Assembly: GCF_009914755.1 (NCBI RefSeq)
Contig: NC_060928.1
DNA length: 64,000 nucleotides
DNA from: the human T2T-CHM13v2.0 reference genome, Homo sapiens
Strand: one strand, 5' to 3'
Positions 425-2,550 of the stretch are shown here, in pieces; positions within the stretch are counted from its first letter, which is position 1, and each line of letters opens with the position of its first letter. The position numbers and the translations under genes are program-made. Under the pieces are notes generated by a model, which saw only the letters and a program-made list of their open reading frames with translations, did no database searches and was not told the DNA's origin.

Positions 425-783
425 CTGTCTATTATTCAGGGTTCTTCAGAGAAACAGAATCAGTAGAATGTGTATGTGTGTGGAGTGTGTGGAGCAGGAT
501 ATTTTAAGGAATTGATTCAGTTGATTGAGGCAATTGCAGGGCTGACAAGTCTAAACTCTGCAGAGAAAGCCAACAGACTGGAGACACAAGGAAGAAAGAA
601 TTGACACAACTCAAGTCTGAAGGAGAAGTGCTGGCAACATTCCCTCTTCATCTGGGGAGGCCAGTCTTTTCTTTAAGGCCTTCAACTGATTGCATGAGGC
701 CCACCTGCATTATGAATGGCAATCTACTTTACTCAAAGTCTACTGATCTAAATGTTGATTCCATTCAAAAATATTTTACAGAA
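425..783 (-). mobile_element. MLT2 (ERVL) solo LTR, left piece, interrupted by the insertion at 784-2458
   Basis: Starts with the MLT2 reverse-strand end pattern tattcagggttcttcagagaaacagaatc and runs to aatctactttactcaaagtctactgatctaaatgttgatt. It resumes collinearly at 2459. Confidence 0.85.
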
Positions 784-800
784 TGTATTACCTATTTTGC

Positions 801-914
801 CGCAGACAGGAGGGGCAGCCCACACACCAGCAGCCAGAAGGGGTAGAAGAGGGCATGGATATGAATGTTACAGGTGATGAACAGGAAAATGCAGTGGCCA
901 TACATGTCATAGCC
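801..914 (-). pseudogene. YIPF3: YIPF3-like exon remnant ([33 protein letters not shown])
   Basis: Matches recalled YIPF3 [33 protein letters not shown]. Preceded on the minus strand by the acceptor ctgagtgattttccttcttcccag. Confidence 0.9.
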
Positions 915-1093
915 CTGGGAAGAAGGAAAATCACTCAGGATGGGCTGGCCTCTGGCCCCTCATGGGGAACCTAGGAAATAGATGGTCCATTGGCCTGCTC
1001 CTCTCATTCCAGGTTCTGGGGCCTCAGGATAGATGCACACCAAGGCCTGGCTCCTCTTTTAAGACAACCCCACCACCATGCCTGGCTCCATAT

Positions 1094-1218
1094 CAGCAGT
1101 GCTGACATTTGGAGCGTGATGATCTGGGCTTTACACAAGTAGGCGAGAAAGTAAATGAAGGATGAGACATCCAGCCAGTGGCCGAAGCAGGTGCCAGTGG
1201 AATCAGAGTGCCCACCTG
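1094..1218 (-). pseudogene. YIPF3: YIPF3-like exon remnant ([40 protein letters not shown]), frameshifted
   Basis: Matches recalled YIPF3 [44 protein letters not shown]. Acceptor ccgcag is intact, the donor has decayed to AT, and the exon is ~7 bp shorter than expected. Confidence 0.9.
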
Positions 1219-1369
1219 CTGCGGAGTAAAAGTTCTATTTAGTACTGGGGGGACCCTGCTATTACCCTTAGCCAGCATCAGGGGCTGCTCCTACATCATT
1301 CCATCATTGTCTCCTTGGGCAAATTTCAACCTAGTTCAACCATCCATCAAAATCCTCTGCTGTACTTAC

Positions 1370-1461
1370 AATAGTGGTGCCAAATGTCTTTATCCTATGC
1401 AGGAGGATAGCAACCAGGATGAAGACCAGCATGAGAAGTCCGTTGAGTTCACGTGAATTTT
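1370..1461 (-). pseudogene. YIPF3: YIPF3-like exon remnant (KI..ELNGLLMLVFILVAILLHRIKTFGTTI)
   Basis: Matches recalled YIPF3 [31 protein letters not shown]. Flanked by a tggcag acceptor and a perfect gtaagt donor (acttac at 1364-1369). Contains a 1-bp deletion. Confidence 0.9.
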
Positions 1462-1574
1462 CTGCCAAAATACCAATTCATTCAGGCTGGAGGATAAAAT
1501 GGGTCTTCTACCTGTGCCTTCTCAGGCTTTGCCTGGTGGCCCACCTTCTGCCAGACATGATATTCCCTGATAAC

Positions 1575-1619
1575 CTGGAGGAAGTTGACTATCTTGTTGG
1601 GATCATGGACTGCAGCAGC
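1575..1619 (-). pseudogene. YIPF3: YIPF3-like short exon remnant (LLQSMIP.KIVNFLQ)
   Basis: Matches recalled YIPF3 RLLESMIPIKMVNFPQ. GT donor at 1573-1574; polypyrimidine tract present with the acceptor decayed to GG. Confidence 0.85.
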
Positions 1620-2458
1620 CCGGGAGAGGAAAGGAGAGATAAGAGCAAGGCAGCACTGGGCTATGAGGTTCTGGAGAGCAAGGCCTGACTCCTACTCATC
1701 ACTCTAACTTCAGGGAATGAGGCCTCCCACAATGTATGCTGGCTGACAGCGGGAGGAAAGGGTAGTAAAGACATAGGGAATGGGGAAATTATTTCCTTGC
1801 CGCTAAAATACCTGCAGGAAGGACAACCCTCTGAAACAGCTAACTGAAGTAGCAGCTATACAGAAGACTTAGAGCCCAACTGGGCCTTGGGAAAGGGCCT
1901 GACCATTTACCTATTTGACCCATTTCCCTTTAAAAGGCTGGTAAACCTCAGCAGAGTGCTCAGAATTCAGGGCTGTGATGGTGAGGCCCTGGAAAATGTT
2001 GAGAAGAAAAAGTGTTAATGAGGGAACCAGTATGCCTCCTGCCTCTTTCTGCTTAACTCTTCTTCCTGGCACCACTGAGCATTTTCTTGAGAAATATATT
2101 TAAAGTGTTATGACAATTTCACACACACAAAAATAAAAGTACAAGTCACTTCCCCATGCTTTTCTTAAGTGGCTAGCTCCTAATAATAGCTTGGAATTTA
2201 GCTAGATTTTGCTTCCTTTGGGAGACCTGCCCTGTCCCACCCACCAACCTACTCAGGCTCGGGTGTGTCTCCTGCATGCCATGATAGCACATGGGTACTG
2301 TATTGTGACTGCACTCCAGGGCAAGACTCCTATCCATCCTCACCACAGAATTAGACACAGAAAGTATAGGGCCTGGCATGGAGCAAATGCTTAATGAATA
2401 CTTTCTTAACAGTCCTAGGTATTTGATAGGCACTGATTACATTAAAGGATGAAAGAAA

Positions 2459-2550
2459 AAAAATATTTCACAGAAACATCTCGAATTATATTAGACCAAA
2501 TATCTGAGTACCATGGCCTAGTCAAGTTGACACATAAAATTGACCATCGT
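2459..2550 (-). mobile_element. MLT2 solo LTR, right piece
   Basis: cacagaaacatc...gaccaaatatctgagtaccatggcctagtcaagttgacacataaaattgaccatc is the canonical MLT2 terminus and continues the element broken at 783. Confidence 0.85.

What the first reader, a model, noticed from the sequence alone, without database searches (positions are those of the whole stretch)
767..2475. Retrocopy of an RNA antisense to YIPF3: an intron-retaining pseudogene with its poly(A) on the wrong strand
Seen in sequence: a 1.7-kb insert splits an MLT2 LTR and is flanked by a 17-bp TSD starting at an L1-endonuclease-like TC/AAAA site. It ends on the + strand with ATTAAA and an A-rich tail. The - strand carries four consecutive exons separated by three introns of 113, 151 and 179 bp, several with splice signals still visible. 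Established knowledge: the peptides match YIPF3 (recalled sequence; 28/34 residues in one block), and L1 retrocopies are normally spliced and in the same sense as their tail. Inference: L1 copied a polyadenylated transcript that ran antisense through YIPF3 and ended in the intron upstream of the short exon. YIPF3 introns would not be spliced out of such an RNA. The insert would then be a datable fossil of an ancestral natural antisense transcript. As recalled, YIPF3 lies head-to-head with POLR1C in a compact locus where opposite-strand transcription is plausible.
Basis: partly seen in the sequence, partly recalled or inferred. Interest (0 to 1): 0.85.

Follow-up and report, generated by a model that had tools for sequence, protein, structure and literature searches.

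The report
Ancient antisense unspliced YIPF3 retrocopy
A 1.7-kb piece of the YIPF3 gene, introns included, was pasted into chromosome 4 tens of millions of years ago, most likely by the LINE-1 machinery from an RNA read off the gene's opposite strand; this kind of insertion is rare but already known, and its supposed poly(A) tail is encoded in the source gene.

Summary
Window 784-2458 is one collinear, same-strand copy (73-77% identity) of chr6:43341496-43343523. That locus is YIPF3, on the minus strand. The copy carries exons 7, 6, 5 and 4. It keeps introns 6, 5 and 4 (179, 151, 113 nt) and 839 nt of intron 3.

It splits an interspersed LTR-type repeat. A 16/17 target-site duplication flanks it, starting at TC/AAAAA. 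All 7 paralogous repeat copies that I aligned carry that segment once.

The polarity of the nick site fits LINE-1 target-primed reverse transcription of an unspliced plus-strand RNA, antisense to YIPF3.

The "poly(A) tail" is not supported. The parent reads ATTAAA, eight bases, then A7 at the same place, so no untemplated A is needed. A real poly(A) site and internal priming on the A7 run cannot be told apart here.

The structure matches the published class 1 templated sequence insertions (PMC5110952). It is a new, old and fixed member of a known kind. Interest is modest.

The parts
440..766 (.). Left part of the host interspersed LTR-type repeat (family name not tested)
   Evidence: 40 of 40 scored genomic candidates match (70-85% identity apart from the window's own place); it is contiguous with the right part in paralogous copies.
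767..783 (+). Left target-site duplication, AAAAATATTTTACAGAA, preceded by TC (site TC/AAAAA)
   Evidence: present once in the 7 aligned paralogous repeat copies
784..787 (+). Four bases (TGTA) at the 5' junction with no match in the parent. They are either extra nucleotides or decayed sequence.
   Evidence: alignment; my hand realignment of 784-800
788..914 (-). YIPF3 exon 7 copy plus the first 4 bases or so of intron 7 (donor GGTAA kept). The copy's 5' end lies here.
   Evidence: P0056 residues 223-258, 72% identity, E 1e-13. The MAFFT alignment of the last 15 nt or so is poor; the boundary comes from a hand realignment.
915..1093 (-). Retained intron 6 (179 nt)
   Evidence: 82.1% identity to chr6:43341614-43341807
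1094..1218 (-). Exon 6 copy, with a 7-nt deletion that breaks the frame
   Evidence: 84.8% identity
1219..1369 (-). Retained intron 5 (151 nt)
   Evidence: 71.5% identity
1370..1461 (-). Exon 5 copy, with a 1-nt deletion
   Evidence: 82.6% identity
1462..1574 (-). Retained intron 4 (113 nt; 136 nt in the parent)
   Evidence: 78.8% identity
1575..1619 (-). Exon 4 copy (short exon), with a 1-nt deletion
   Evidence: 88.9% identity over 45 nt. tblastn did not find it.
1620..2458 (-). Copy of the 3' part of YIPF3 intron 3. The parent has a roughly 315-bp Alu-like insert, at a point equivalent to window 1929/1930, that the copy lacks.
   Evidence: 82.3% and 77.4% identity for the two parts
2441..2446 (+). 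ATTAAA hexamer on the strand antisense to YIPF3; also present in the parent at chr6:43343503
2456..2463 (+). A8 run. Positions 2459-2463 belong to the duplication, and the rest is matched by A7 in the parent (chr6:43343517-43343523). No untemplated tail can be shown.
2459..2475 (+). Right target-site duplication, AAAAATATTTCACAGAA
2476..2550 (.). Right part of the host LTR-type repeat

Best explanation
This is an old, fixed LINE-1-type insertion made by target-primed reverse transcription. In the published terms it is a class 1 templated sequence insertion.

Proposed mechanism (inferred):
1. The L1 endonuclease nicked the bottom strand of an LTR-type repeat on chr4 at 5'-TTTTT/G-3' (TC/AAAAA on the top strand).
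2. The T-rich 3' end paired with an A-run at or near the 3' end of an RNA transcribed from the + strand of the YIPF3 locus. That RNA was antisense to YIPF3, so its introns could not be spliced out.
3. Reverse transcription ran about 1.7 kb, from intron 3 through exons 4, 5, 6 and 7, and stopped 4-8 nt past exon 7 (5' truncation).
4. A second nick 17 bp away gave the duplication.

Shown: the collinear intron-bearing copy, its strand, the duplication, the single-copy 'empty' state in paralogous repeats, the nick-site polarity, and ATTAAA plus A7 at the parent's matching position.

Inferred: the RNA intermediate, L1 as the enzyme, and the source of the RNA. Candidate sources are divergent transcription from the LRRC73 CpG island, 2.1 kb upstream on the + strand, or read-through from the + strand Pilt/TJAP1-type gene.

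Not decidable here: whether the RNA was cleaved and polyadenylated after ATTAAA, or was a longer RNA primed internally on its A7 run. I put these at about even odds.
For: - Homology: searches give a single same-strand collinear match, window 813-2461 to chr6:43341512-43343523. Identity is 76.9% over 1186 columns, 77.0% over 61 and 73.1% over 475. Only 2 candidates exist in the whole genome, the window itself and the parent.
- Gene identity: nearly all hits that carry a source name are named YIPF3. maps the 9 coding exons of P0056 on the minus strand of the parent. One search shows introns 6, 5 and 4 retained.
- Duplication: 16/17 match, expected 0.01 by chance. In one search, 7 of the 8 paralogous copies holding both flanks show them abutting. 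In one search, 7 of 7 aligned copies carry the segment once.
- Polarity: TC/AAAAA lies at the left of the duplication, so the A-run end sits next to the T-rich primer. The reverse polarity would need a nick at GT/TTCTGT.
- No terminal inverted repeats (none of 5 inverted pairs lies at the ends).
- 3' end signals: ATTAAA is kept in both copy and parent, with its first base 14-15 nt before the A-run. It lies in a cluster of 4 poly(A)-signal hexamers within 155 nt on the + strand.
- Published description of this class: insertions of intronic or intergenic RNA with a duplication, a cryptic poly(A) signal and a TTTT/A site (PMC5110952, passages read).
Against: - No untemplated poly(A). The parent encodes A7 at the junction, whereas class 1 insertions are described with 10-40 untemplated A's. 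After this much decay an A-rich remnant would still usually be expected.
- The A-run could instead be junction microhomology, in a DNA-templated event or a top-strand-primed one.
- The nick site is a variant, TC/AAAAA rather than TT/AAAA.
- The hexamer is weak evidence for a real poly(A) site. In 17 kb of the donor region, 2 of 6 runs of A6 or longer have such a hexamer within 35 nt upstream.
- The 5' end falls within 4-8 nt of an exon-intron boundary. The model explains this only as chance (my rough estimate is 4-8%).
- I found no record of a YIPF3 antisense transcript. One search listed 10 of 11 papers holding both words. The one paper with 'antisense' in its abstract used it for primers and strands only.
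- No other mammal could be examined.
Confidence: 0.7

Rival explanations
1. Top-strand-primed copy of a sense, unspliced YIPF3 pre-mRNA, with only the 'twin-priming' half retained. After both L1 nicks, the left 3' overhang (ending ...ACAGAA) primed on the sense pre-mRNA just inside intron 7. It copied back to the T7 run of intron 3. The cDNA's terminal A-run then paired with the T5 overhang of the right end. No antisense RNA is needed.
For: The orientation fits equally well: the + strand is the complement of the sense RNA, running from exon 7 to intron 3. The A7 at the right junction would serve as microhomology. The left end lies just inside intron 7 (and hand realignment). Antisense-oriented mRNA pieces in L1 chimeras are ascribed to twin priming in bioRxiv 10.1101/2025.02.02.635956 (passages read).
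Against: As I recall it, classical twin priming leaves a sense-oriented 3' segment running from the internal priming site to the poly(A) tail. Here that would be intron 7 through the 3' UTR, and none is present: the match has a single orientation. There is no clear complementarity between the ...ACAGAA primer end and the parent sequence at intron 7, and 4 unmatched bases sit at that junction. The reading needs extra ad hoc steps.
Confidence: 0.08
2. Orphan 3' transduction. A retroelement (L1 or the like) once lay in + orientation upstream in the donor locus. Its transcript read through into the YIPF3 antisense strand to the ATTAAA site. Severe 5' truncation on insertion then removed all element sequence.
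For: This would also give an unspliced, genome-collinear fragment with a duplication, a poly(A) signal and no element sequence. Orphan transductions are mentioned in print: PMC4862182 names them in its discussion and cites Solyom et al. 2012 in its reference list (passages read).
Against: None of 77 ORFs of 60 aa or more in the 7.6 kb upstream (chr6:43333001-43340600, both strands) matched an L1 or reverse-transcriptase family at E <= 0.01. The only match was Pilt. The upstream stretch is filled by the YIPF3 3' exons, LRRC73-like exons and a CpG island. Non-coding element remnants could not be tested.
Confidence: 0.05
3. DNA-templated insertion. A fragment of chr6 DNA, or synthesis templated on it, patched a staggered double-strand break on chr4. 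No RNA step was involved.
For: Introns are retained and the A-run is genomically encoded, so nothing in the insert itself requires RNA. Patch-type class 2 insertions are described in PMC5110952.
Against: Class 2 events are described as lacking duplications and poly(A) signals. Here there is a 17-bp duplication starting at an L1-endonuclease-like site of the right polarity. The copied segment also ends exactly at an A-run preceded by ATTAAA. That run is the only + strand run of A6 or longer in the YIPF3 gene body outside the later Alu.
Confidence: 0.06

Closest known systems
Class 1 templated sequence insertions (Onozawa & Aplan, PMC5110952; passages read)
   Same: A distant single-copy donor; template of intronic or non-annotated RNA rather than spliced mRNA; flanking target-site duplication; insertion at an L1-endonuclease-type site; a 'cryptic' poly(A) signal shortly before the 3' end.
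   Different: This one is fixed and old (about 21-26% diverged from its donor), not polymorphic. It shows no untemplated 10-40 A tail. It spans four exons of a coding gene in antisense.
Classical processed pseudogene (L1-mediated mRNA retrocopy)
   Same: Presumed enzyme and mechanism (TPRT); duplication; 5' truncation; decay by frameshifts (deletions of 7, 1 and 1 nt in exons 6, 5 and 4).
   Different: Introns are retained, and the priming end lies on the strand opposite to the gene's sense.
Orphan L1 3' transduction
   Same: An element-free, genome-collinear unique fragment with a duplication and a downstream poly(A) signal.
   Different: No source element was found upstream in the donor locus (0 of 77 ORFs). 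That test covers coding remnants only.
Twin-priming 5' inversions of L1 insertions and retrocopies
   Same: They also give cDNA that is antisense relative to the poly(A) end.
   Different: They have two segments of opposite orientation. Here there is only one.

Membership tests
L1-mediated class 1 templated sequence insertion | Target-site duplication of at least 5 bp at both junctions | tested here: met
   17 bp, 16/17 identical; 2 matches in 64 kb against 0.01 expected; the segment is single in 7 of 7 aligned paralogous repeat copies
L1-mediated class 1 templated sequence insertion | Insertion at the L1 endonuclease consensus (5'-TTTT/A-3' on the nicked strand) | tested here: inconclusive
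   The site is 5'-TTTTT/G-3' (TC/AAAAA on the top strand), with polarity correct for the A-run end. That this near-consensus variant is an accepted L1 site is recalled, not tested.
L1-mediated class 1 templated sequence insertion | Untemplated poly(A) of 10-40 residues at the 3' end | tested here: not met
   The A8 run is fully accounted for by the parent's A7 and the 5 A's of the duplication
L1-mediated class 1 templated sequence insertion | Poly(A) signal 10-30 nt upstream of the 3' end | tested here: met
   ATTAAA at 2441-2446, with its first base 15 nt before the A-run (14 nt in the parent); kept in the parent at chr6:43343503. It is the variant hexamer, not AATAAA.
L1-mediated class 1 templated sequence insertion | [quoted passage not shown] | tested here: met
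   chr4 insert, chr6 donor, one collinear match
Processed pseudogene | Introns removed | tested here: not met
   Introns 6, 5 and 4 are present at 179, 151 and 113 nt, with 71-82% identity to the parent introns
Processed pseudogene | Insert in the sense of the mRNA relative to its 3' tail | tested here: not met
   Exons lie on the minus strand; the A-run and the nick polarity are on the plus strand
Orphan L1 3' transduction | Source element directly upstream of the donor segment in the same orientation | tested here: inconclusive
   0 of 77 upstream ORFs match L1 families. Non-coding remnants are not testable without a repeat library.
Twin-priming inversion | Two adjacent segments of opposite orientation, the 3' one ending in poly(A) | tested here: not met
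   Single orientation over the whole insert
DNA transposon or Pack-type capture | Terminal inverted repeats | tested here: not met
   None of the 5 inverted pairs lies at the insert ends
YIPF3-derived sequence | Best genomic match is the YIPF3 gene, and the translated exons match YIPF3 protein | tested here: met
   Against this, Pfam gave 0 families for 4 of 4 translated copy ORFs at E <= 1.

The most novel reading that the evidence does not exclude
The insert is a cDNA snapshot, tens of millions of years old, of a genuinely polyadenylated antisense transcript of the YIPF3 locus. One candidate is a promoter-upstream (divergent) transcript of the neighbouring LRRC73 CpG-island promoter. It would have terminated at the cluster of poly(A)-signal hexamers in YIPF3 intron 3 and been captured by L1 in the germ line. 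That would make it a datable fossil of a class of unstable non-coding RNA.
Probability: 0.3. Interest if true: 0.45.

Novelty: new member of a known kind. Interest (0 to 1): 0.3.

Why it matters
If the RNA reading is right, a non-coding antisense or read-through transcript of a compact gene cluster reached the L1 machinery in the germ line and was fixed. The copy records which strand was transcribed and, possibly, where the RNA ended at that time. A single case adds little to what the polymorphic templated insertions already show. A genome-wide census of such TSD-flanked, unspliced, antisense gene fragments could give a historical record of non-coding transcription. The case also carries a caution: an A-run at a retrocopy's end must be checked against the donor locus before it is called a poly(A) tail.

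Tried and rejected
- Pfam on the four translated copy ORFs: 0 of 4 matched at E <= 1. Gene identity therefore rests on DNA homology and tblastn.
- Rfam on window 600-2700: 0 matches at E <= 0.1. No snoRNA or miRNA explains the copy.
- Own-genome search with the last 201 nt of the donor segment: only the parent and the copy, 2 candidates. My impression that this stretch is an old SINE-like repeat is unconfirmed recall.
- L1 source element upstream in the donor: 0 of 77 ORFs.
- I looked for the retrocopy's orthologue among unnamed short-contig proteins. Thirteen were compared, and all match the parent better than the copy. One (P0001) reads through introns of a YIPF3-like gene but is not the chr4 copy.
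- Literature on YIPF3 antisense RNA: one search found 11 papers and listed 10. The one with 'antisense' in its abstract uses the word for primers and strands.
- Literature on retrocopies of antisense or lncRNA: one search gave 0 papers for six phrasings. Searches listed nothing on unspliced antisense gene retrocopies. PMC1868933 treats retrocopies as a source of antisense pairs, not the reverse (passages read). So 'not in print' holds only for these searches of this library.
- A sense-RNA insertion in the opposite polarity was rejected: there is no T-run at the left end, and the nick site would be GT/TTCTGT.
- A splicing intermediate ending at exon 7 was rejected, because the copy includes at least GTAA of intron 7 (hand realignment).
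Full report
**1. What is there**

Window 767-783 and 2459-2475 are a 17-nt direct repeat with one mismatch (family D4). 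They are the only two matches to that pattern in the 64-kb window. Chance expectation is 0.01, and 0 of 100 shuffles reached two matches.

The sequence outside the repeat belongs to an interspersed LTR-type repeat. A genome search with window 440-783 gave 1929 first-look candidates; 40 were scored and all 40 matched.

Of 11 paralogous copies fetched, 8 hold both flanks. In 7 of those 8 the flanks abut, and in one they lie about 300 nt apart. In an alignment of those 7, the duplicated segment is present once between the flanks. So a 1675-bp insert (784-2458) split the repeat and duplicated 17 bp of target.

I could not test the family name 'MLT2' because no repeat library is at hand.

**2. Where the insert came from**

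The whole-genome search found two candidates only: the window itself and chr6:43341512-43343515, on the same strand. A more sensitive blastn gave three collinear pieces:

| Window | chr6 | Identity |
|---|---|---|
| 813-1936 | 43341512-43342691 | 76.9% over 1186 columns |
| 1934-1992 | 43343006-43343066 | 77.0% over 61 columns |
| 1990-2461 | 43343087-43343523 | 73.1% over 475 columns |

The roughly 315 bp missing from the copy is an Alu-like insert in the parent (the name is recalled). The copy was therefore made before that insertion.

The parent is YIPF3. A search with one parental ORF gave 229 proteins at E <= 0.001 among 444 candidates. Nearly all of the 120 listed hits that carry a source name are called YIPF3. 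The 350-aa human entry P0056 maps as nine coding exons on the minus strand of the locus, at 94-100% identity per exon.

Pfam found nothing in the four decayed copy ORFs (0 of 4).

**3. Anatomy of the copy**

On the minus strand:
- Exon 7, about 792-914.
- Intron 6, 915-1093 (179 nt).
- Exon 6, 1094-1218 (7-nt deletion).
- Intron 5, 1219-1369 (151 nt).
- Exon 5, 1370-1461 (1-nt deletion).
- Intron 4, 1462-1574 (113 nt).
- Exon 4, 1575-1619 (1-nt deletion).
- 839 nt of intron 3, 1620-2458.

In one search, AG survives at 3 of 4 acceptors and GT at 2 of 4 donors. The exon 7 donor GT appears only under my hand realignment of the 5' end.

Identity is 82.4% over 376 exon positions (K2P 0.204) and 78.7% over 1239 intron positions (K2P 0.257).

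If both lineages are taken as neutral in the introns, that is about 0.13 substitutions per site per lineage. With recalled mammalian rates (1.2-2.2e-9 per year) this gives very roughly 60-110 million years. This is an inference, not a dating. The host repeat is older, at 70-85% pairwise identity to its paralogues.

**4. The junctions**

*Left junction.* The duplication is preceded by TC, so the top strand reads TC/AAAAA and the nicked strand 5'-TTTTT/G-3'. This is an L1-endonuclease-like site. Its polarity puts the priming end at the right-hand, + strand, end of the insert.

In the opposite polarity the site would be GT/TTCTGT, and there is no T-run at the left end.

The insert starts with 4 unmatched bases. 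It then carries the complement of the exon 7 donor (GGTAA), so the copy stops 4-8 nt into intron 7 (hand realignment; MAFFT misaligns the last 15 nt or so).

*Right junction, the key result.* The copy reads ATTAAA-GGATGAAAG-AAAAAAAA followed by the rest of the duplication. The parent reads ATTAAA-GGATGAAC-AAAAAAA-CC. Both the hexamer and the A-run are encoded in the donor. Of the copy's eight A's, five belong to the duplication and the rest align with the donor's A7.

There is no demonstrable untemplated tail.

**5. Donor-locus context on the + strand**

- The A7 is the only run of A6 or longer in the YIPF3 gene body outside the later Alu. It is one of 6 such runs in 17 kb, and 2 of the 6 have AATAAA or ATTAAA within 35 nt upstream. 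A hexamer next to an A-run is therefore not rare.
- The ATTAAA sits in a cluster of four hexamers within 155 nt (chr6:43343460-43343615). This includes the first AATAAA on the + strand in the stretch scanned, from inside the LRRC73 CpG island onward. That AATAAA reads AATGAA in the copy.
- Upstream on the + strand lie the remaining YIPF3 exons 8 and 9.
- Next come exons matching a protein that its source names LRRC73, on the minus strand at 43335980-43338512. A CpG island spans about 43338200-43339400, with GC 0.7-0.79 and CpG observed/expected 0.8-0.97.
- Further upstream is a + strand terminal exon of a Pilt/TJAP1-type gene (PF15453, E 2e-77).
- Two ordinary sources of + strand RNA across YIPF3 therefore exist: divergent transcription from the LRRC73 island, 2.1 kb before the copy's 5' end, and read-through from the Pilt gene. 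Both are inferences.
- No L1 coding remnant was seen upstream (0 of 77 ORFs).

**6. Mechanism and rivals**

The best reading (0.7) is L1 target-primed reverse transcription of an unspliced + strand RNA, antisense to YIPF3.

The support is threefold:
- a duplication of typical length;
- a near-consensus nick site of the right polarity;
- a copied segment that ends exactly at an A-run preceded by a poly(A) signal.

Within this reading I cannot separate cleavage and polyadenylation after ATTAAA (with the tail since lost or very short) from internal priming on the A7 of a longer RNA.
- For a true site: the hexamer and the hexamer cluster. By analogy, PMC1868933 found that cDNAs whose 3' ends align to genomic A stretches carry poly(A) signals in 17% of cases, against 85% for genes in general (passage read).
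- For internal priming: the complete lack of untemplated A's.
- I put the odds at about even.

Rivals:
- A top-strand-primed copy of a sense pre-mRNA (0.08).
- An orphan 3' transduction (0.05).
- A DNA-templated patch (0.06).

Each is set out with its evidence in the Rival explanations section.

**7. Comparison with what is known**

The mini-review PMC5110952 (abstract and passages read) describes class 1 templated sequence insertions. Their template is intronic or non-annotated intergenic RNA acted on in trans by L1 ORF2p. They show a duplication, a 'cryptic' poly(A) signal 10-30 nt before the tail and a TTTT/A site. This insert works like these.

As a member, it meets the duplication, donor and signal criteria. 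It is inconclusive on the exact nick consensus. It fails the untemplated-tail criterion.

It is not a processed pseudogene, because introns are kept and the sense is opposite. It is not a two-segment twin-priming product.

I found no paper describing an antisense, intron-retaining copy of a coding gene as such, and none on a YIPF3 antisense RNA. Those searches cover only the held library.

**8. Verdict**

This is a new, old and fixed member of a known kind. Interest is 0.3.

Noticed in passing
L005:2691-3005 (chr6:43342691-43343005): An Alu-like element of about 315 bp in + orientation sits in YIPF3 intron 3 of the parent and is absent from the chr4 copy, so it inserted after the copy was made. 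The family name is recalled, not tested.
   Followed up: partly
L005:3460-3615 (chr6:43343460-43343615), + strand: Four poly(A)-signal hexamers (AATAAA, ATTAAA, ATTAAA, AATAAA) lie within 155 nt on the strand antisense to YIPF3, in an AT-rich patch of intron 3 (GC about 0.40). The copy ends inside this cluster.
   Followed up: partly
window 784-800: The 5' end of the insert falls 4-8 nt beyond the exon 7 / intron 7 boundary. No mechanism I considered predicts this. I treat it as chance (my rough estimate is 4-8%).
   Followed up: partly
L004:5200-6400 (chr6:43338200-43339400): A CpG island at the 5' end of the minus-strand LRRC73-like gene, 2.1 kb upstream (on the + strand) of the donor segment. 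It could act as a divergent promoter for RNA antisense to YIPF3.
   Followed up: partly
proteins P0001, P0003, P0005, P0102: Several database 'proteins' from short unnamed contigs align across YIPF3 exons and introns without splicing. They appear to be read-through translations of YIPF3-like genomic DNA rather than real proteins.
   Followed up: partly
window 2120-2143: The copy has about 24 nt, a CA-rich then A-rich stretch, that the parent lacks. It is either a copy-specific insertion or a deletion in the parent.
   Followed up: no
window 3410-3560: A further stretch that looked to me, from recall only, like another LTR-type repeat. It lies just before a block that the hub lists as masked (3574-3749).
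   Followed up: no
G000:C6:43349013-43349180, + strand: A match to the RNA polymerase insert domain PF01000 (33.4 bits, cut-off 33.9) lies 3.4 kb beyond the first coding exon of YIPF3 on the opposite strand. This is consistent with the recalled head-to-head POLR1C.
   Followed up: partly
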